From Azolla caroliniana (Eukaryota; Plantae; Polypodiophyta), in assembly GCA_043228905.1 (NCBI GenBank), contig JBHGNT010000557.1, forward strand, positions 1 to 20,832: a stretch of 20,832 nt of DNA, given 5' to 3'. Positions 1 to 20,214 of this stretch are shown piece after piece. The notes under the pieces were generated by a model. That model did not search any database, was not told where the DNA came from, and worked only from the letters and a program-made list of their open reading frames with translations. The stretch's first letter is position 1; every line of letters starts with the position of its first letter. The position numbers and the translations under genes were made by a program.

Positions 1-124
1 CTGCCATGAAACTACTCCCCCTACATAAGTCATCATGTATCTGGACGTGGATATGCTCGTATCCTTCCAATTAGGATACGTGATGACTTATGCAGGGGGA
101 GTAGTTTCGTGGCAGTCGAGGCTG
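1..124. repeat. Inverted duplication within the copia RNase H (41-bp arms at 1-41 and 75-115)
   Basis: 1-41 is the reverse complement of 75-115 with 3 mismatches. The plus strand at 74-124 reads GYVMTYAGGVVSWQSRL, a flipped copy of the copia sequence. Confidence 0.9.
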
Positions 125-1164
125 TCGACACACATGTGGATCTAGACGTGAATCATATATCCTTCCAATGTGGGGCTACCCCAGCCGAATCGGAGACACA
201 CATTTGAGGTGCCTCTCAGGTACCAAAGTATCCACTTCACAACAACCCAATGCTCTCTTCTAGGATTGCTCATATATCGGTTGACCACTCCGACTGCATA
301 CGCGATGTTCGGCCTAGTGCAAACCATTGCATACATCAGGCTTCCGATTGTTAAGGCACAAGGGACTTTTGACATCTCGGCCTTCTTGGTTTTCAATTTC
401 GGACATTGTTCTTTGCTTAGCTTGCAGTTTGTCGGTAGTGTCGAGCTGACCGATTTCGTGCTTTCCATGCCGAATCTCTGGAGCATCTTTATCACATACT
501 TCTCTTATGATAGCCATAACAATTTCTTTGTTCGATCCCAAACAATGTGCATTCCCAGGATTTGTTTTGCTAGACCAATATCTTTTATCGAGAATGACCT
601 ACTCAAGGCCTTCTTCAAGCTTCCGATTTTCTTCGGGTCTCTTCTGACAGTCAGTATGTCATCCACATACAATAGGAGGATGAGAAAATCTCCTCCATCA
701 TACTTCTTGACAAAGAAACAATGATCAGCTTGTGTCTTGCTGAAACCATGATCCACCATGAAAGATTTGAACTTTCGGTACCATTGCCGAGGTGCTTGCT
801 TCAGACCATACATGCTCTTTCTCAATCGGCATACCAGGTTTTCTTTACATTTTTCTTCGTATCCTTCTGGCTGGTGCATATATATCTCCTCTTCGAAATT
901 TCCATGCAAAAATGCTGTCTTGAAATCCATTTGTTCGACTTCAAGATCCATGCTGGTGATTATGCTCAACACTGTTCGGATGGAGGTCATCTTCACTATT
1001 GGGGCAAATATCTTGTTGAAATCGACACCCTTCTTCTGTTGGAAACCCTTTACAATGATTCAAGCTTTATATCTTGGTGGATTTTTGCTATCTCCCGGCT
1101 TCCGCTTGTATACCCACTTATTCCTGAGTGCCCTTTTCCCTTTCGGCAACTCGGTCAATTCCCA
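1..1164 (-). pseudogene. pol: Ty1/copia retrotransposon pol fragment (reverse transcriptase to start of RNase H), degenerate
   Basis: Minus-strand translation gives WELTELPKGKRALRNKWVYK, QMDFKTAFLHG, IYMHQPEGY, LRKSMYGLKQAPRQWY, LLYVDDIL, GSLMYAMVCTRPNIAYAVG, LEGY and STSRYMMTYVGGVVSWQ. These are canonical copia RT/RNase H motifs, broken by in-frame stops. Confidence 0.96.
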
Positions 1165-1833: not shown

Positions 1834-2290
1834 TGTCGTAAAGATTCCTAGCCACAGTGAGAAAACCGGATAAGTCGGCGGAATCGGCAAGGTACAACAT
1901 GTGCACATGTACATTAGAAGATGTATGTAGAATAAAAGGGGGGGGGGATATTTATCCCATATTGTAGTGCCTCTCCCTCCTTGTGTTATAAAAGGAAGGG
2001 AGGGTCCCTTGTAAAAGGGGTTGCCCATTTTGAGTTAGGAGAGTATACCACTTAGGTCTAAGGTATGGTAGCTTTTCTCTTCTTACTTACTTTCTTTGAG
2101 GTTTCATCTAGGTCTTCTTCTTCATCCTCATCACGTGGGTTGAGTCTTCATGTCTATTTAGGGTTTAGTCCGATTATGAGCTCGTATGTCCTAAGGGGTT
2201 TTCGCTTCCACTCTGTCTCCTGTGCAAGACCCTGCTTAGCGCGACGGGCCCGAGAGCTCCACAATCGACGGCTTGGTAGCAGACCGTTGT
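1834..2290 (+). repeat. 3' LTR of element A, 3'-truncated (same LTR type as E)
   Basis: TGTCG start and TATAAAAGGAAGGGAG box. Shares ATTTATCCCA.ATTGTA, GGGTTGCCCATTTTG and CTCCTGTGCAAGA..C...GCGCGACG..CCGAGAGCTCC blocks with 10865-11260. The right boundary is approximate. Confidence 0.8.
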
Positions 2291-2537
2291 GTGAGTCTTA
2301 GGTGGGGTAAGTAGGTGTACCCCCGCTTGGCTTTTTTTAATGATCAAATCTTGTACTATTTAAAACACACCTATGGGGCATGAAAGGAAAGAAATATAGT
2401 GAAGTTAACCCTCAAACTTGTGTCTATCTTGATTCCCTCTCTCTCATTCTCTATGCATCTCGCTCCCGCTCTCCCACATTCAACCACCTTGGGAGGGGGG
2501 TGGAGCCGATCTTGGCTCCACCCCCCACCCATCAACA
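2291..2537 (+). repeat. 5'-truncated LTR of a second family (F)
   Basis: Ends CCCCCACCCATCAACA, the same end as the reverse complement of solo LTR 3577-3911. Also shares TGTA.TAT.TAAA...CTATGGGGCAT and CC.CCTTGGGAG blocks with it. The left boundary is approximate. Confidence 0.7.
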
Positions 2538-2539
2538 CT

Positions 2540-3030: not shown

Positions 3031-3128
3031 GACCATTGGTGTCGTGAAGATTTTTGGCAACGGTGTGAAAATTGTGTGCAACAAACGAAATCGAGAAGGT
3101 GCAATGTGCACCTGTGAAAGGGGTAGAA

Positions 3129-3186
3129 GCAAGGCTTGAACCTTGCACCTCCAAGACAGAAGGAAATTAACTTACCACTAAAGCTA
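3129..3186 (-). promoter_or_regulatory. tRNA-like Pol III A-box/B-box module in LTR B
   Basis: Minus strand reads TAGCTTTAGTGGTAAG...GAGGT GCAAGG-TTCAAG-CCTTGC, an A box plus a T-arm-like hairpin at tRNA spacing. Confidence 0.55.
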
Positions 3187-3576
3187 CTACCAAGTTCTCC
3201 AGATTTTGTATATTTCCTTGTCATATTCAATAATCCATAGGAAACAAATGTACAAAACCATGGTTTTAAGCCTATTGTTTTGTGCATGCCACAAGAAAAA
3301 CCGTGTGCCCAAAAACCATGGGTCCAAGCCCATGGTTTTGTGCATGTTAGAAGCATGGATAGATCTATAAAACCCCTCATAGGGGTTGTGTAAGGGGGGA
3401 AATTTAATCAAAGATTTGAATTATCCTAATGGTGATGTAGTTTGTCTCGTAAAACTAAAGTCAAGGGTTCAATCTCTATCTCAATTTGTCTCATAATTGG
3501 AATTTCAATCTCTATCTTAAATACTTTCTCACTAAAGCTAGTACAACCTTTGAATCATTTTGGTCCAGGACCCCGG

Positions 3577-3911
3577 TGTTGATGGGTGGGGGATGAAGCC
3601 ATTCTCCCAAGGGGGTTAAGTTAGAGAGAGAGCGAGAGACAAAGACAAATAGAAAATGACACCAAATGAGAGGGGAAAAATGTATATCCATTAGATGCCC
3701 CATAAGGGGTTTATATAATACATAATGTAACGATAAATAATGATCGTTACAAAAGAGACGACCGTTACACTCTTGTCACATGCACATAATTGTGCATGTG
3801 CTCACACATACTCATCCTCACATACTCATTTACTTTACACATACACATCATGTCATCAACCACATCATTACACATACCCTTATTCCTCCCCGTATATTCT
3901 CACAGGTAACA
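3577..3911 (-). mobile_element. Solo LTR (335 bp), related to family F
   Basis: TGTT...AACA termini and a perfect 5-bp TSD CCCGG (3572-3576 and 3912-3916). TATATAAACCCC lies on the minus strand. Removing the insert restores the conserved U5 motif of LTR B. Confidence 0.9.
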
Positions 3912-3967
3912 CCCGGTGGTCCCGCTTCATTTTCGCAAACACGCGAGGATTTCCTCGACATATAATT

Positions 3968-3982
3968 TGGTGAACCCGACGT
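3968..3982 (+). promoter_or_regulatory. tRNA-Trp primer-binding site of B, split by insertion of C
   Basis: TGGTGAACCCGACGT here plus GAA at 20166-20168 rebuilds TGGTGAACCCGACGTGAA. Confidence 0.88.
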
Positions 3983-4034
3983 AGTCATAGTGTGATTCGC
4001 ACGTTATGTGAAAATTGCATTTTGGTTCCTACGC

Positions 4035-4165
4035 ACCGGATGAAGGAGGAACCGGTAAGGAGGACCCGGTAAGGAGAACCGGATGAAGGAGGACCTAGTA
4101 AGGCGAACCGGTAAGGAGACCCGGATCAAGTAGAACCGGCAAGAGCCGGATAAAGAAGGCCGATG
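4035..4165 (+). repeat. ACCGG-core minisatellite in U3 of LTR C
   Basis: Units of roughly 11-16 bp such as ACCGGATGAAGGAGGA and ACCGGTAAGGAGA. A shorter array lies at 19025-19120. Confidence 0.85.
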
Positions 4166-4231
4166 AGAGCCTCTCATTGGATGAAGAGACAAATTTGTAA
4201 ATAGAAAAAAAAGATTGTTACATGCACAGGG

Positions 4232-4287
4232 CAAAATTCGAACCTTGTGCCTCTACATAGACAAACCCCAACCTTACCATTGTACTA
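4232..4287 (-). promoter_or_regulatory. tRNA-like A-box/B-box module in 5' LTR C
   Basis: Minus strand reads TAGTACAATGGTAAG...GAGGCACAAGGTTCGAATTTTG. Confidence 0.5.
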
Positions 4288-4853
4288 ACTTATCCTAAGC
4301 GTTTAAAATATAGATTTAATACATATAAGACCTTTGTTTACGCCTACCTTTATTAAAAGGTAAGTCATGCATTTTTAGAATGCATGAATACTTTATTTAT
4401 AAGAAAAATGTACACCAATAAAAAATTACTCATGCATATCTAGCGAGCATGAGCACTATATTTAGGAAATAAAAGCATAGTGTAAAAGGCAACTCATACA
4501 CATTTTAAGTGTGCATGAACACGTTAGAAAAAAGCATGAGGCTATGCTTAGCCTCTGCCATCCTTATATAAGGAGGAGAGAAAGATGTATGGGGTTATTG
4601 ATTATTTTTACAAGGATTGATCAATCTAATATATTCGTGGGATTCACGAGTTTATCATCAAAATTCTCTTTCTTACAATCTAAATATTGATTAAATACAC
4701 TAAACACGTGGGATCCACAAGTTTAATTTCTTACTTCTCTTTCTACCTATTCATAACCAGCCTTATATTGTATTCTTCTTTCTCCTAGTCCAAAACCTCA
4801 GTGGTTCCCACCCGACTCACGCAACGATCCTGAGCCGAAAGGCACGACACAAG

Positions 4854-4871
4854 TGGTGAACCCGACGTGAA
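4854..4871 (+). promoter_or_regulatory. Primer-binding site of C, complementary to the tRNA-Trp 3' end
   Basis: TGGTGAACCCGACGTGAA is the reverse complement of ...TTCACGTCGGGTTCACCA, the plant cytosolic tRNA-Trp 3' end as I recall it. It starts 4 nt after the LTR. Confidence 0.88.
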
Positions 4872-6730: not shown

Positions 6731-7831
6731 TGTCGTGAAGATTTTTGGCAATGGTGTGAAAATCACATAAAACTACAAAAAGATGGAGGTCTTGAAGAGC
6801 TTTCGGATGCACTTTACTACATAAGAAACGGACATCTAAGTGTCAACTTATGTGGGTAGGAAGTTTGAAAAGATAAAGAGAAAAATAAAATTGTGAGATA
6901 TCCCAGATAGACAGGAAATAAGGATCTCACCATATATAAGGTAGAGCAGAAGATATTATCTTTGTGTCTATGTGTGGAGCATAGAGAGTACAAGGTGACT
7001 TCAACTAAGCTATTGGATGAATGGGTGTGGCCTGGCTACTTGGAAAGGTTTTGGCCAAACAAAACCGGACTGACGACAGAGCCGGTAAGCCCGCGACAAT
7101 CGGCGTCCGACGACGGAACCGGCATCTGCCGACCCGAACGGGAACCTGCATCCGGCAACTGGACGGTAATTGACATCCAACGGCGGAACCGAGATCCGAC
7201 GACCAAACGGTAACCGGCATCTGGCAACCGGCGACCGACGACTAGATGGATAAATAAATAAATAAATATTTATACATATACACAAGGAAGGAAAGTAAGG
7301 ATTTGAACCTTGCACCTCCAAGTTGAGAGTCAATAGGCTTACCACTAAGCTAACACATTTTTTTGGAATTATATTTTTATCATTGTAACTTTACATGTAA
7401 ATTCTCATACATGAGAGCTAAAGTGAGTGACATGGTTATCATGCACCACATGTAATACATGAGGGCCAAATGGCAAACATTCATTTTATGCATGTCTTGT
7501 ACCCTCAAATGCATGAGGCCATCTATAAAAGAGGAGAGGAAAAAGATGATAGGGCTAATGTAAATTTTTTGGATGATCAAAGAAGAAACTTGTAACCCTA
7601 TTGTTGATGTATCTTGTCTCTTAAATCTAAAGTTAAAACTCTCTATCTCTCTCTTGCCCTATCAATCTCTCTCAATCTAAAGTCAAGTGTTTAATCTCAA
7701 TTTCTCTCTCTCTCACTCACTCTATCTTAAATACTTTCTCGCTAAAGCTTGTGCGTACTTAGAGTCATTCCGTTCCAGAACCTCGACGGTTCCGCCTCAC
7801 AATCCACACATAGTGACGGATCTTCATGACA
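6731..7831 (+). repeat. 5' LTR of element D
   Basis: 12-bp terminal inverted repeat TGTCGTGAAGAT / ATCTTCATGACA (1 mismatch). Aligns to 14334-15237 and has a TATAAAAG box near 7524. Confidence 0.94.
7295..7352 (-). promoter_or_regulatory. tRNA-like A-box/B-box module in 5' LTR D
   Basis: Minus strand reads TAGCTTAGTGGTAAGC...GAGGTGC AAGG-TTCAAAT-CCTT. Both boxes fit the consensus, with a 7-nt T loop and tRNA spacing. Confidence 0.62.
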
Positions 7832-7839
7832 TAATTAAG

Positions 7840-7857
7840 TGGTGAGCCCGACATGAA
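7840..7857 (+). promoter_or_regulatory. tRNA-Trp primer-binding site of D (2 mismatches)
   Basis: TGGTGAGCCCGACATGAA, starting 8 nt after the LTR end. Confidence 0.82.
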
Positions 7858-10864: not shown

Positions 10865-11603
10865 TGTCGTGAAGAATTTCGTCCAGAGGTGGAAACTGGG
10901 AAACATTGGCTACATCGGCGGGGTGCAGCATGTGTGCTCACCCTTGTACATTTAGTGTGAATAACGAGGGCGCCTTTATGGTGCCGAAGAGTAGTTAAGT
11001 CGGGATTTATCCCACATTGTAACGCATCCCTCTCCTTGTTCTATAAAAGGAAGGGAGCGCCCTTTGTGAAAGGGTTGCCCATTTTGGCGTTAGAGGGTAT
11101 ACCGTTAGATTTAGGGTTAGTTATGCTTCTTCTTCTTCTTCTTCTTCCCCCTTCGTGTTTTGCTTAGGGTTTGCTTTGGCTCGGCCTCCTGTGCAAGATC
11201 CCGCTCGGCGCGACGAGCCGAGAGCTCCCTGACGGCGGCTTGACAGCAGACGACCGCTGTAACCTACCTTGGTCTGGCTCGAAGCCGGAAATGTACTCTT
11301 CCTTTTATATATATACATTTGCGTCTGTCTGTGTATATTCGCGTCTCTGTTGGTGTCGGGTGCTTCCCCTTTCCTGCGTTTCCTGTACATAAGGTCGTGA
11401 GTCGGGTCGGCATGTGTGTGTATGTGCGTGAGTCGGTGTTAAGCGCGCGCTCCCTCTCTTTCTCTCTCTCCCTTCGGTCGCTTCCGGTGTTCTTCTGGGA
11501 TTCCCCGGAAACGGTGAAGCACGACTTCCTACGCTCCGTCACTCCCTAGTCCAAGACCCCCGTGGTCCCGCCTTTCTCCACGCACGCGCGTAACAATGCG
11601 ACA
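10865..11603 (+). mobile_element. Solo LTR E (739 bp) inserted in the RT of D
   Basis: TGTCG...CGACA termini and TSD ACGG (10861-10864 and 11604-11607). Removing it restores WFTVPKKNG. It has no PBS or internal region. Confidence 0.93.
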
Positions 11604-11607
11604 ACGG

Positions 11608-14261
11608 TGCCGAAGAAAAATGGATCATTGTGATTCATCCAAGATCTTCAACCCGTTAACAAGGTGACAATTCGAAATGCTGGAATTGGTCCGAGCGTGG
11701 ATGAATTTGCCGAGGCGTTTGCGGGCCGGTCCATCTACTCCATTGGTGATCTCTACTCCGGATATGACCAATTCCAATTGGCAATCGACAGTCGTGACAT
11801 TACAACCATGAGGACTCCGATCGGGCTCGTGCGGATGTGTACCTTACCTCAAGGTGCAACGAACTCGGTGGCTCATATGGTGAATGCCATGAACAAGGTC
11901 TTAAAGGATTGCATCCCGGACATCACGATGCCATCCTTGGATGATATTCCAATAAAAGGATGTTCGGATGAAGAGAAGAATGAATCAAAAGATAAGGAAG
12001 GGTGTAGAAATTTTGTCGTGGATCATATGAAAGATTGCGAGAAGGTGCTCCAAAGGCTCGAAGATGCGAATTTGACATTTTCGGGAGAGAAATATGCATT
12101 CGGGCAACTAGAGATCTTGGTGGTAGGTCACTCATGTGGAGAATACAGTCGGAAGCCTTCGCCATCAAAGGTGAACATGATCCAGGACATGAAAGAAGAA
12201 TGCGTAAACCAAACGGAGGTTCAAAGGTTCCTTGGAGCATGCGCATTTTACCATATTTGGATTCCGCACTACGCCCATGTTGCCGAGCCTTTATATGGAT
12301 TGCTAAAGAAAAGAATGAAGTTCGAATGGCGAGACGAGCACACGAACGCGATGCGAAGATTGAAGAAACTACTTCTTGAAGCTCTAGCACTAAGAAAGGC
12401 CGACTATACCGAAGGAAAGCCAATTTATGTGACTGTAGATATGAGCCCAACCGGAATCGGGTGGGTCATCAACCAAGAAGGAGAAGATAATGCGCGGTAT
12501 GCCATTTGGTTCGGAGCAAAAGTTCTCAGCGAACGGCAACACAGATACACCCAAGTCAAGCGAGGACTTTGGGGTGTTGTGTCGGTAGTGAAGACGGACA
12601 AAGATTACCTGATCGGGTCGGAAGTGATAATAGAGACAGATTGTCTCCCAATCCTCAGAATGATATTGGGATGTGCGACCCCAGATTTAGCTATGCTAAG
12701 GTGGATCGCCTATATCAAGTCTTTAAGCTTAGAGATCTGCCACATTGCAGGCAAGAAGAATGCCATGGCTGATATGCTGTCAAGAGCAAGATTTGAAAGT
12801 GAAAGTGACATGGTTTCGGAAGATGAAGACGTCACCCTCGACTTCTTCAAGATGGCTCGATTATCGGCGGAAGACAAGGACACACTAACTCTCCACGCCT
12901 TCAGTGAGGACGAGTACGAAGGAGAGTGGTTACTGATCGACAAATTCTTAAGAACAATGACGACAGATGCTTCATTGATAAAGGAGGAGGCTCTACGAAT
13001 CCGGAAGAAAGCTTATCGATACTTCTTGAAGGGAGGCTTCCTTTGGCGACACCCAAAAAGAAGGACAGGAATACCACGCCGAGTGGTGGTGAAGAAAGAA
13101 GAGCAAGTGACGCTGATGACCGAATTCCACGAGAGTGCTTGGGCAGGTCAAAAAGGAGCATGGGCAACGTTCGAAAAGTTGAAGGAAAAGTACTGGTGGC
13201 CAAGCATGTACAAAGATGTACTCCATTTCGTGTCCACATGCGAAACTTGCCAAGTACATTCCAACATACATCAGCGTGATGAGCTATGACCGACATACCC
13301 GCTTACCATACACTTCAAATGGATGGTTGATTTGGTCTCGATGCCAATGGGAGTGGGACAAATGAAGTACTTAGTGTTGGCAAGAGAAGACTTGAAAAAT
13401 CAAGTGGAAGGGCGAGCCTTGACAAATAAGACGACGTCAACTGTTTGCAAATTTCTACTTGAAGAGGTTGTCTGCTGATACGGATGTGTGGGGAAGATAG
13501 TCGCCGACAGAGGGGAGTTGAATGCACACGAAGCAACGGAGCTTTTCGAACGACTAGGCGTGAAGCGCTCCCTCACTGCCTACAATCCAGAAGCAAATGG
13601 GAAGATCGAGCGAGGGCATGGACCCATCGTCAAAGCCATCGTATGAGCATGCAACGGTCGAGTCGGGAATTGGCCACGACTATTGCCCTATGCCTTGTGG
13701 GTCGACAGAACGACACACAGCTCAGTGACAGGGTATATGCTAACGGAGCTTATGTATGGACAAAAGCTGGTGATGCCCATCGAAAGGACGATCACCTCAT
13801 GGGTAGCGATACCATGGGAGAACGAGATGAGCCGAGAAGAATTATTAGCGGCACGGATAAGGAAACTTCAAAGGAAACCAGAAGATCTAGAACATGCGTG
13901 AAAAATGATGGAGGCAACCCGAGTGAAGAACAAAATTTGGTTCTACAAGATGCATCGACTACGTCCCAAGAAGATCGAAGAAGGAGATTGGGTATTGGTC
14001 TACGACAACAACCTTGACAATCAACACAGTACAACAAGAAAGTTCGCAAGAAGATGGTTCGGACCGTATGTGGTGATAAGTGCGAACGACAATGCCACAT
14101 ACCACCTTGCGGAGCTAGATGGATCAAGGTTGGCCATACCCATTGTGGGAAAAAGAGTAAAGGTTTTCAAGAAAAGACAAGACAAGGATCCTGACCTGGA
14201 TTACCTCGACGATGAAGATACTACGACGGATGTGAATGAGGACGTGGAGGGATCTAATTGA
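11608..14261 (+). pseudogene. pol: Element D pol: RT, RNase H, integrase (degenerate)
   Basis: RT motifs DLYSGYDQ, LPQGATNS and SLDD. RNase H motifs VDMSPTGIG, ETDC and NAMADMLSR. Integrase motifs CETC, WMVD, ADRGE, NPEANGKIER and WFGPYVV. No chromodomain. Confidence 0.95.
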
Positions 14262-14333: not shown

Positions 14334-15237
14334 TGTCATGAAGATTTTCGGCAATGGTGTGAAAATCACATAAAACTACAAAAAGATAGAGGTCTTGAAG
14401 AGCTTTTGGATGCACTTTACTACATAAGAAACAGACATCTAAGTGTCAACTTATGTGGGTAGGAAGTTTGCAAAGACAAAGAGAAAAATAAAATTGTGAG
14501 ATATCCCATATAGACAGGAAATAAGGATCTCACCATATATAAGGTAGAGCAAAAGCTATTATCTTTGTGTCTATGTGTGGAGCATAGAGAGGTCAAGGTG
14601 ACTTGAACTAAGCTATTGGATGAATGGTTGTGGCCTAACTACTTGCAAAGGTTTTGGCCAACCAAAACCGGACTGACGACGGAACCAGGACCTAGGATCC
14701 GGCAACCGGCAACCAACGACGGAACCGGGATTCGGTGACCCAACGGTAATCGGCGATCGGCGGCTAGATGGATAAATAAATAAATAAATATTTATACATA
14801 TACACAAGGAGAGAAAGTAAAGATTTGAACCTTACACCTCCAAGTTGAGAGTCAATAAGCTTACCACTAAGCAAACACATTTTCTTGGAATTATATTTTT
14901 ATTATTGTAACTTTACATGTAAATTCTCATACATGAGAGCTAAAGTGAGTGACATGGTTATCATGCACCACATGTAATACATGAGCGCCAAATGGCAAAC
15001 ATGCATTTTATGCATGTCTTGTACCCTCAAATGCATGAGGCCATCTATAAAAGAGGAGAGGAAAAAGATGATAGGGCTAATGTAAAATTTTTGGATGATC
15101 AAAGAAGAAACTTGTAACCCTATTGTTAATGTATCTTGTCTCTTAAATCTAAAGTTAAAAGTTCGATCTTATCTCTCTCACTCTCTATCTCTCTCTTGCC
15201 CTTTCAATCTCTCTCAATCTAAAGTCAAGCGTTTAAT
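14334..15237 (+). repeat. 3' LTR of element D, truncated
   Basis: Preceded by a PPT (14303-14333) and aligns to 6731-7695. The last ~135 bp and the right TSD are missing. Confidence 0.92.
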
Positions 15238-18940: not shown

Positions 18941-19185
18941 ACCGGAGGATGTGCGGGTTTGGAGGGGGCGAGTGTCGTAGTGTAATTCGCACACTATGTG
19001 AAAATTGCATTTTGGTTCCTACGGACCGGATGAAGGAGGAACTGATAAGGAGAACCGGTGAGAACCGCATGAAGGAGGACCCGGTAAGAACCGGATCAAG
19101 CAGAACCGGCAAGGCCGGTGAGAGCCTCTCACTGGATGAAGAGACAAATTTGTAAATAGAAGAAAAGATTGTTACATACATAGGG

Positions 19186-19241
19186 CAAGATTCGAACCTT
19201 GTACCTCCACGTAGATAAAACCCGACCTTACCATTGTACTA
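19186..19241 (-). promoter_or_regulatory. tRNA-like A-box/B-box module in 3' LTR C
   Basis: Minus strand reads TAGTACAATGGTAAG...GAGGTACAAGGTTCGAATCTTG, with a consensus B box GGTTCGAATC. Confidence 0.55.
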
Positions 19242-19617
19242 ACTTATCCTAAGTGTTTAAAATATAGATTTAATACGTATAAGACCTTTATTTACGCCTA
19301 CCTTTATTAAAATGTAAGTCATGCATTTTTAGAATGCGTGAATACTTTATTTATAAGAAAAATACACACCAATAAAAAATTACTTGTGCACATCTAGCGA
19401 GCATGAGCACTATATTTAGGAAATAAAAGCGTAGTGTAAAAGGCAACTCATACACATTTTAAGGTTGCATGAACACTTTAGAAAAAAGCATGAAGCTATG
19501 CTTAGCCTCTGCTATCCTTATATAAGGAGGAGAGAAAGATGTATGGGGTTGTTGATTATTTTTACAAGGATTGATCAATCTAATATATTCGTGGGATTCA
19601 CGAGTTTATCATCAAAA

Positions 19618-20160
19618 TTCTCTTTCTTACAATCTAAATATTGATTAAATACACTAAACACGTGGGATTCACAAGTTTAATTTCTTACTTCTCTTTCTAC
19701 CTATTCATAACTAGCCTTATATTGTATTCTTCTTTCTCCTAGTCCAAAACCTCAGTGGTTCCCACCTGACTCACGCAACGATTCGGAGCCGAAAGGCACG
19801 ACTTCTCTTTCTTACAATCTAAATATTGATTAAAAAACACGTGGGATTCACAAGTTTTATTTCTTACTTCTCTTTCTACCTATTCATAACTAGCCTTATA
19901 TTGTATTCTTCTTTCTCCTAGTCCAAAACCTCAGTGGTTCCCACCTGACTCACGCAACGATTCAGAGCCGAAAGGCACGACTTCTCTTTCTTACAATCTA
20001 AATATTGATTAAAAAACACGTGGGATTCACAAGTTTTATTTCTTACTTCTCTTTCTACCTATTCATAACTAGCCTTATATTGTATTCTTCTTTCTCCTAG
20101 TCCAAAACCTCAGTGGTTCCCACCTGATTCACGCAACAATCCGGAGCCGAAAGGCACGAC
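19618..20160 (+). repeat. Three tandem copies (185, 179, 179 bp) of the LTR C terminal segment
   Basis: Units at 19618-19802, 19803-19981 and 19982-20160, each running TTCTCTTTCTTAC...AAAGGCACGAC. Confidence 0.95.
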
Positions 20161-20214
20161 AACGTGAAAGATGCGGTAGGAAGGATCAAGTCGAGGATCG
20201 ACTGATCCTTGTAG

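What the first reader, a model, noticed from the sequence alone, without database searches (positions are those of the whole stretch)
7295..7352. Antisense tRNA-like Pol III promoter module retained inside three divergent LTR types
Seen: LTRs B (3129-3186), C (4232-4287, 19186-19241) and D (7295-7352, decayed copy 14817-14874) all carry a minus-strand TAG(C/T)..(A)(G/A)TGGTAAG A box. About 45 nt later comes a GGTTC(G/A)A B box inside a CAAGG/CCTTG-type T-arm hairpin, preceded by a variable-loop-like GAGG(T/C). This is tRNA U8-to-T54 spacing. The spacer between the boxes and the flanking U3 sequence align poorly between the three LTRs, but the boxes persist, always upstream of and opposite to the LTR TATA box. 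B also has GGTAG/CTACC acceptor-like pairing. LTR type A/E appears to lack the module. Known precedent: Cassandra TRIMs carry 5S-derived Pol III boxes in their LTRs, and TFIIIC-bound boxes can act as chromatin barriers. Inference: this may be a captured tRNA or SINE head used as an insulator against silencing, a source of antisense RNA, or a docking site favouring self-nesting. I do not know of a description for this lineage.
Basis: partly seen in the sequence, partly recalled or inferred. Interest (0 to 1): 0.8.

Follow-up and report, generated by a model that had tools for sequence, protein, structure and literature searches.

The report
Backward tRNA promoter in plant LTRs
Three distantly related families of jumping genes in a non-seed plant carry a conserved, backward-facing copy of the tRNA-gene promoter boxes in their end repeats; it likely binds the RNA polymerase III factor TFIIIC and would help keep the element's own promoter open, but binding and function are untested.

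Summary
Minus-strand A and B boxes at tRNA spacing lie in the U3 of LTRs B, C and D, and not in A/E. The elements are Phygy-type Ty3/gypsy (tRNA-Trp PBS, 4-bp NCGN TSDs); C and D share only 32% of gag residues.

A metagenome scan gave 97 LTR-type copies; 89 are orientable, all antisense to their LTR. The spacer is 19 nt (tRNA spacing) in 93 of 106 hits. In sequencing-run contigs of D-like LTRs, 3 of 36 box-region positions vary, against 21 of 39 in the spacer and near flank.

It is not a tRNA (no acceptor or anticodon stem), not a free SINE, has no fixed terminator, and shows no docking. An unreported 8-bp inverted repeat encloses the B box and covaries.

Best reading (0.5): an old tRNA/SINE-head capture, likely kept as a TFIIIC platform about 190 bp upstream of the TATA box that shields the Pol II promoter. 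Untested.

The closest known elements are Helenus TRIMs, which are non-autonomous (the plant one is sense-oriented). This scan noted tRNA-type boxes in fungal chromovirus LTRs before. New variant; interest 0.55.

The parts
7288..7352 (-). Module in LTR D1: A box 7352-7342, 19-nt spacer 7337-7319, B box 7309-7300, inverted-repeat arms 7316-7309 and 7295-7288
3122..3186 (-). Module in LTR B: A box 3186-3175 (one extra T), B box 3142-3133
4223..4287 (-). Module in LTR C1: A box 4287-4277, B box 4244-4235 (C61 is T in this copy)
19177..19241 (-). Module in LTR C2: A box 19241-19231, B box 19198-19189
14810..14874 (-). Module in LTR D2, decayed at A-box position 9
3040..3961 (+). 5' LTR of element B (TATA 3365; PBS at 3968; Copia-like solo LTR inserted 3576-3911)
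3983..4849 (+). 5' LTR of element C (TATA 4564; PBS at 4854), inserted into B's PBS, TSD ACGT
18973..20161 (+). 3' LTR of element C (TATA 19518; triplicated 179-nt unit near its 3' end)
6731..7831 (+). 5' LTR of element D (TATA 7523; PBS at 7840), inserted in C after ACGA
14334..15237 (+). 3' LTR of element D, 3' end deleted (TATA 15045)
10865..11603 (+). Solo LTR E, TSD ACGG, inserted in D's pol; lacks the module
1834..2290 (+). LTR A (E-like; 3' end approximate); lacks the module; its first ~87 nt align to LTR B up to just before the module
11634..13289 (+). D pol fragment (RT, RNase H, integrase zinc finger) used for classification

Best explanation
The module is a tRNA-type A-box/B-box unit fixed backwards in the U3 of Phygy-type gypsy LTRs; it was likely captured once from a tRNA pseudogene or SINE head and likely binds TFIIIC, which would keep nucleosomes or silencing marks off the LTR's Pol II promoter about 190 bp away. 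Shown: the sequence, the LTR residence, the fixed orientation, the tRNA spacing, conservation within and between families, the loss of the cloverleaf, and an 8-bp inverted repeat around the B box. Inferred: TFIIIC binding; TFIIIB loading on the A+T-rich stretch that faces the Pol II promoter; barrier or promoter support; selection acting only on replicating master copies. A short antisense Pol III RNA of variable length may be a by-product. The module is dispensable for at least one family (A/E).
For: Orientation: 89 of 97 LTR-type loci have independent LTR evidence placing the module antisense. 5 of them also show reverse signals, which were not all traced; none is sense-only and 8 cannot be oriented.

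Spacing: 19 nt in 93 of 106 hits although the pattern allowed 18-28.

Positions not fixed by the pattern, in 84 distinct loci: A14 80, R15 81, C61 73. The A-box 5' half TRGY-N2/3-AR occurs in 45 of 84 against 13 of 13,371 background offsets.

Between 11 flank-defined clusters, identity is 0.54 (A-box 5' half) and 0.53 (positions 59-72) against 0.29 expected, while the upstream flanks sit at background (0.32-0.37 against 0.29-0.35). C and D gag are 32% identical and RT/RNase H 68%.

Contigs of 4 runs with 4 organism labels, not selected for the boxes: 3 of 36 box-region positions have 10% or more other letters, against 21 of 39 in spacer plus near flank (Fisher p=2e-5, positions not independent). 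Two of the three are A/G swaps at R9 and R15.

Distance to the TATA box is tighter (CV 0.14, n=54) than to the LTR 5' end (CV 0.63, n=44). A+T is 0.76-0.81 in the 55 nt upstream against about 0.6 farther out.

TFIIIC/TFIIIB barriers are known in yeast (PMC9540200, passages). Divergent tRNA-like boxes drive a neighbouring gene in Leishmania (PMC4950102, abstract).
Against: There is no binding, chromatin, expression or mutation data. In the passages read, the plant barrier review cites TFIIIC only for yeast and tRNA genes for animals.

Positions 43-51 are as invariant as the B box and form a covarying inverted repeat (84.9% paired), which TFIIIC binding alone does not explain. About half the copies depart from even the loose A-box 5' consensus (45 of 84 loose, 25 of 84 strict).

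Within the D family a more distal U3 stretch (7373-7400) is also conserved (2 of 28 positions vary; one search lists 2 more), so the boxes are not the only conserved U3 part. LTR E lacks the module yet inserted after D.

The metagenome set was picked by a pattern containing the boxes and comes from one sample series. Within LTR pairs the module decays as fast as the rest or faster (C 7 of 59 against 39 of 771; D 4 of 58 against 45 of 826).
Confidence: 0.5

Rival explanations
1. The product matters: Pol III would make a short antisense RNA whose 3' hairpin is functional (self-regulation, a small-RNA source or decoy), as in foamy-virus LTR Pol III cassettes.
For: The distal stem is 84.9% paired with 12 G-C to A-U cells at one pair; 0 of 500 shuffles reach this, and slid registers give 31-54%. 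Departures are often G-U on the module strand. T33 and A37 persist. SFV LTRs carry A/B-box Pol III miRNA genes (PMC3993851, passages).
Against: A T4 lies inside the LTR in 59 of 68 copies against 54.5 expected by shuffling, at 11-260 nt, so there is no fixed 3' end. The stem is only 8 bp. Folding energy is equal on both strands (-12.0 against -11.7). The G-U bias is partly forced by the search pattern, and the compensatory cells may be few events.
Confidence: 0.2
2. The conserved core is a Pol II enhancer: the inverted repeat is a dimeric transcription-factor site co-opted from the tRNA-like relic, and TFIIIC is irrelevant.
For: Positions 43-52 are invariant. A similar GGTGCA-type inverted pair lies just 5' of the module in B and survives in module-less A and E. 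The distance to TATA is constrained.
Against: It does not explain the A box with R/Y-type degeneracy 36 nt away, the GTTCRA..C core, or the fixed 19-nt spacer.
Confidence: 0.12
3. Neutral relic of an old SINE or tRNA insertion, spread between families by LTR recombination.
For: A chimeric B/C LTR exists (L016). A/E lack the module. Similar modules occur outside LTRs in another plant host.
Against: The boxes are far more conserved than the spacer lying between them, which recent recombination would not produce. The families' flanks are unalignable.
Confidence: 0.07
4. A reverse-transcription signal: a Ty3-like 3' part of a bipartite primer-binding site in U3 (the genomic RNA carries the tRNA complement), or a hairpin in the minus-strand cDNA.
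For: The antisense orientation and U3 location are what the Ty3 bipartite PBS shows (PMC5371799, passages).
Against: The primer's 3' end, read from the window PBS, implies a T-stem 5' strand unlike the module's CAAGG/TAAGG (89 of 89 copies, a position fixed by the pattern) and does not resemble module positions 61-72. The A box varies between families. Similar modules occur in non-LTR DNA.
Confidence: 0.06
5. A landing pad that draws sister elements to TFIIIB, as Ty3 does at tRNA genes.
For: The window is a nested pile (B holds C, which holds D, which holds E). Notes from other genomes of this scan propose such pads (unchecked).
Against: Of 77 copies with at least 143 nt on the TATA side, 11 lose family homology within 200 nt. 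None shows a family LTR inserted next to the A box; one has a 63-nt non-LTR insert in the box. Target sites follow NCGN (PMC6317226).
Confidence: 0.05

Closest known systems
Helenus / TRIMp3 (Kojima 2024, PMC10886601; parts 1-4 of 6, passages and supplement passages read)
   Same: tRNA-derived sequence in the LTR, conserved A and B boxes, no functional tRNA, proposed origin from a SINE insertion.
   Different: Helenus elements are non-coding TRIMs of 311-1263 bp thought to be transcribed by Pol III. The one plant family (Selaginella) has the boxes in sense orientation and a 5-bp TSD. Here the hosts are about 8-kb gag-pol elements with a TATA promoter, antisense boxes, a Trp PBS and 4-bp TSDs. 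Kojima notes that 'not a few' Repbase LTRs hold tRNA-like parts but analysed only TRIMs.
Phygy lineage, Ty3/gypsy non-chromovirus (Neumann et al. 2019, PMC6317226; passages and one supplement row read)
   Same: 4-bp NCGN TSD, tRNA-Trp PBS, 7.7-10 kb size.
   Different: Described from Physcomitrella. The passages read mention no Pol III boxes in its LTRs.
Cassandra TRIM (as described in PMC10886601)
   Same: Pol III promoter boxes in a plant LTR.
   Different: 5S-derived, non-autonomous, drives the element's own transcript.
Simian foamy virus LTR Pol III miRNA genes (PMC3993851, passages read)
   Same: A/B-box Pol III units inside the LTR of an autonomous retroelement.
   Different: They have defined terminators and long miRNA hairpins; here the terminator position is variable and the stem is 8 bp.
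tDNA/TFIIIC chromatin barriers of yeasts and animals (PMC9540200, passages read)
   Same: The proposed way of working.
   Different: Host loci rather than a mobile element; not cited for plants in the passages read.
Leishmania U2 snRNA extragenic tRNA-like boxes (PMC4950102, abstract read)
   Same: A tRNA-like A/B unit upstream that is needed for a neighbouring gene.
   Different: The neighbour is a Pol III gene; here it is a TATA-type LTR promoter.

Membership tests
Phygy (Ty3/gypsy) | 4-bp NCGN TSD | tested here: met
   ACGT (C) and ACGG (E) on both sides, ACGA left of D; ACGT on both sides in L043
Phygy (Ty3/gypsy) | tRNA-Trp PBS | tested here: inconclusive
   PBS TGGTGA(A/G)CCCGAC at 3968, 4854, 7840; the Trp label is recalled, not from a call; Phygy is 81% Trp
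Phygy (Ty3/gypsy) | RT-RH-INT order, size 7.7-10 kb | tested here: met
   Pfam order; D spans about 8 kb without insert E
Phygy (Ty3/gypsy) | Placement in the REXdb RT phylogeny | not testable with these tools
   No reference set held; nearest named proteins are from Riccia and Adiantum at 54-57%
Helenus / TRIMp3 | tRNA-derived A and B boxes in the LTR | tested here: met
Helenus / TRIMp3 | Short non-coding TRIM (under about 1.3 kb) | tested here: not met
   C and D carry gag-pol; pol-less derivatives have 1.9-2.5 kb interiors
Helenus / TRIMp3 | Boxes oriented to transcribe the element | tested here: not met
   Antisense in 89 of 89 orientable loci; Helenus-1_SMo is sense
tRNA gene | Cloverleaf with acceptor and anticodon stems | tested here: not met
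   52% paired, equal to shuffles; acceptor 34%, anticodon 47%. No ARAGORN call at default in the window or at any module in 106 loci
tRNA gene | tRNA signature residues and spacing | tested here: met
   T8, A14, G18G19, T33, A37, T54-T55-C56-R57-A58, C61. Relaxed ARAGORN 46 of 91 against 18 of 910 shuffles. One copy scores 25.2 bits on RF00005, below the cut-off of 29
tRNA-derived SINE (independent insertion) | Own TSD, 3' tail, dispersed non-LTR copies | tested here: not met
   In the 97 loci the flanks are LTR-family sequence and no tail or TSD was seen by eye. Two distinct non-LTR loci in another host are unexplained
Type-2 Pol III transcription unit | Conserved oligo-T terminator | tested here: not met
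   59 of 68 against 54.5 expected; position 11-260 nt
Type-2 Pol III transcription unit | TFIIIC binding and Pol III transcription | not testable with these tools
   No ChIP or raw stranded RNA reads were available
Ty3-like Pol III-targeted integration | Insertions next to the Pol III start | tested here: not met
   0 of 77 copies

The most novel reading that the evidence does not exclude
A clade of autonomous plant gypsy elements carries its own TFIIIC-bound chromatin barrier, a domesticated tRNA promoter facing away from the LTR promoter, that lets copies stay active inside silenced transposon piles: a mobile tDNA-type insulator in plants.
Probability: 0.3. Interest if true: 0.8.

Novelty: new variant of a known kind. 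Interest (0 to 1): 0.55.

Why it matters
tRNA-type boxes in LTRs are described for tiny non-autonomous TRIMs, where they are thought to drive the element's own RNA. Here they face the wrong way for that and are kept across full-length families whose LTRs otherwise barely align. If they act as a TFIIIC barrier, this would be a cis-acting anti-silencing device in plant retrotransposons. It would also give a natural pair (families with and without the module) to test whether tDNA-type barriers work in plants, which the review passages read document only for yeast and animals. Such modules can also inflate tRNA-pseudogene and SINE annotations in these genomes.

Tried and rejected
Searches that gave nothing:
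- No whole genome is held and the loci's records cannot be searched by handle, so there was no genome-wide census.
- Rfam gave no tRNA match at E<=10 on the window or on copy B alone.
- Viral contigs: 0 pattern hits and no relative of pol.
- Prokaryote genomes: 2 pattern hits in 596 Gb, used as a chance control.
- Sequencing runs: no RNA holder listed; all runs laid were DNA contigs.
- No Pfam hit identifies the element around the non-LTR modules of L036.

Rows dropped before counts: 3 of 106 metagenome hits (L034, L081, L090) look like chance and 6 are non-LTR hits from another host. Further loci with short flanks or duplicate modules were dropped (84, 77, 74 or 68 used, as stated with each count).

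Rejected readings:
- Functional tRNA.
- Acceptor-like pairing as a family feature.
- A read-through copy of the present primer tRNA.
- Strand assignment of the hairpin by folding energy or G-U bias (confounded by the search pattern).
- Isotype assignment: relaxed ARAGORN gives many anticodons.

Literature: nine searches found no description of this module in Phygy or non-seed-plant LTRs. PMC7466625 has no mention of tRNA, SINE or Phygy in its main text. The library lacks most subscription papers and Repbase entries, so this is weak evidence of absence.

Full report
Setting. The window is a nested pile of decayed LTR retrotransposons. Element C (LTRs 3983-4849 and 18973-20161, TSD ACGT) sits in the PBS of element B (5' LTR 3040-3961). 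Element D (LTRs 6731-7831 and 14334-15237, the second truncated) sits in C, and solo LTR E (10865-11603, TSD ACGG) sits in D's pol. D's pol has RT, RNase H and integrase domains in gypsy order; its nearest named relatives are from Riccia and Adiantum at 54-57%. The host is therefore a non-seed land plant; fern or bryophyte is not settled. The 4-bp NCGN TSD and the size match the Phygy lineage (PMC6317226, passages and one supplement row). The PBS is Trp-type by recall. Tree placement was not testable.

Observation. A generic A/B pattern hits 4 times against 0.09 in 300 block shuffles. A PWM from metagenome copies finds exactly these five in the window and nothing in LTRs A or E. Between B and D the module is a significant island (score 51, null maximum 32); B-C and C-D are not significant by alignment alone. 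C and D are old relatives: gag 32%, RT/RNase H 68% identical.

Related copies. A pattern covering TGGTAAG and the B-box region gave 106 metagenome loci, 0 viral and 2 prokaryote hits. 97 loci come from one sample series and are LTR-type, 6 come from another plant host, and 3 look like chance. Of the 97, 89 have independent evidence (LTR homology outside the module, LTR start, PBS) placing the module antisense. 5 of those also have reverse signals that were not all traced, none is sense-only, and 8 cannot be oriented. By their flanks they fall into B-, C- and D-like groups. The spacer is 19 nt in 93 of 106 hits though 18-28 was allowed, which is the G18-to-T54 distance of a standard tRNA.

Conservation at positions the pattern did not fix. 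In 84 distinct loci, A14 occurs in 80, R15 in 81 and C61 in 73; T33 occurs in 76 and A37 in 72 of the 78 with a 19-nt spacer. The A-box 5' half fits TRGY-N2/3-AR in 45 of 84 (strict N2 in 25) against 0.1% background. Between clusters the unselected box positions are 0.53-0.54 identical, the spacer 0.45, the upstream flanks 0.32-0.37 and the downstream flank 0.38, with 0.29-0.35 expected from composition.

A test free of the pattern. Contigs of four runs laid on D1 show 10% or more other letters at 0 of 21 positions in 43-63, 0 of 7 in TGGTAAG and 3 of 8 in the A-box 5' half (two are A/G at R9 and R15). The spacer shows 10 of 19 and the near flank 11 of 20. Caveats: these are contigs, not reads; only copies 80% alike are laid; differences near ends are under-reported; and a more distal U3 stretch is also conserved (2 of 28, with 2 more rows). 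Within LTR pairs the module decays at least as fast as the rest, as expected if selection acts only on master copies.

What it is not. It is not a tRNA: cloverleaf pairing is 52%, equal to shuffled and slid controls, with acceptor 34% and anticodon 47%. ARAGORN at default calls none of the modules; relaxed, it of 91 against 18 of 910 shuffles, with mixed anticodons. One copy aligns over the whole Rfam tRNA model at 25.2 bits, below the cut-off. It is not a free SINE in this host: the flanks are LTR sequence and no tail or TSD was seen. It has no fixed terminator: T4 inside the LTR in 59 of 68 against 54.5 expected, at 11-260 nt. It is not a visible landing pad: none of 77 copies has a family LTR next to the A box.

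An added feature. Positions 45-52 pair with a distal arm about 13 nt on, enclosing the B box. 50 of 75 distinct regions have at least 6 of 7 Watson-Crick pairs against 3% in shuffles. On a 49-row alignment the stem is 84.9% paired with 12 compensatory cells at one pair, against 31-54% in slid registers. These cells may be few events, and the strand that folds cannot be told.

Loss. LTRs A and E align with B's first ~80 nt and then lack the module. A's PPT region is closer to D (74 nt, 84%) than to C (36 nt). Since the more distant C has the module, loss in A/E is the simpler inference. E inserted after D, so a module-less family was mobile later.

Mechanism. The boxes, their degeneracy and their spacing fit TFIIIC recognition, and the A+T-rich 55 nt upstream (0.76-0.81) fits TFIIIB loading as described for plant tRNA genes (PMC13578239, passages). 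The unit points away from the TATA box at a fairly fixed distance (134-258 nt in 54 loci; 179-285 in the window), while its distance to the LTR end varies widely (96-653 nt, n=44). It cannot transcribe the element, and no fixed RNA end is kept. I therefore favour a DNA-level TFIIIC platform that supports or shields the Pol II promoter (0.5), ahead of a functional antisense RNA (0.2), a Pol II enhancer palindrome (0.12), a neutral relic (0.07), a Ty3-like bipartite PBS or cDNA hairpin (0.06; PMC5371799, passages) and docking (0.05). Every functional step is inferred.

Comparison and novelty. Helenus TRIMs are the nearest described kind (PMC10886601; parts 1-4 of 6, passages and supplement passages), but membership fails on size and orientation. 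Foamy-virus LTR Pol III genes (PMC3993851, passages) and Leishmania extragenic boxes (PMC4950102, abstract) are analogies. A 2026 preprint mentions tRNA-like LTR motifs only for TRIMs (10.64898/2026.03.01.708851, one passage; its supplements are closed). Nine searches found no description for this lineage, but Kojima remarks that many Repbase LTRs hold tRNA-like parts, so unpublished precedent is likely. Unchecked notes of this scan report tRNA-type boxes in fungal chromovirus LTRs; a sequence look-up found no look-alike elsewhere. Verdict: real and likely under selection, a new variant of a known kind, function open; interest 0.55.

Noticed in passing
L004/L009/L036/L061 (one locus; L036 4001-4042) and L060/L067 (one locus; L060 2229-2274): A near-identical module, with the distal repeat arm, lies in A+T-rich DNA with TAGGT-type repeats and no Phygy LTR features, in another plant host (L060 has a PPR gene nearby). 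It may be the donor element or a second capture.
   Followed up: partly
window 3576-3911 and about 2290-2538 (minus strand): A 336-bp TG..CA insert with a 5-bp TSD (CCCGG) sits in LTR B, likely a Copia solo LTR; a related copy lies on the minus strand upstream.
   Followed up: partly
window 19618-20161: The 3' LTR of element C has a 179-nt unit near its 3' end in three copies, unlike its 5' LTR.
   Followed up: no
L016: Chimeric LTR: B-type U3 with the module joined to a C-type U5 end, showing recombination between families.
   Followed up: no
L008, L048, L079: Short derivatives with 1.9-2.5 kb interiors lacking most or all of pol keep module-bearing LTRs.
   Followed up: no
L038 171-937: tRNA-Val, -Ser and -Leu genes that look organellar (by eye) lie about 440 nt from a D-type LTR; an organellar insertion or a chimeric contig.
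   Followed up: partly
L066: Two D-type LTR halves face each other, joined near their TATA boxes, each with its own antisense module.
   Followed up: no
L065: A 63-nt insert with short inverted ends interrupts the A box; MITE-like.
   Followed up: no
window 1-1157: Minus-strand Copia RT fragment cut by an LTR-A fragment, with a 41-nt inverted repeat at 1-41 and 75-115.
   Followed up: no
window 7400-7515, 3270-3360, 4360-4540: CATG-rich repeated motifs lie between the module and the TATA box in B, C and D; candidate Pol II enhancer elements.
   Followed up: no
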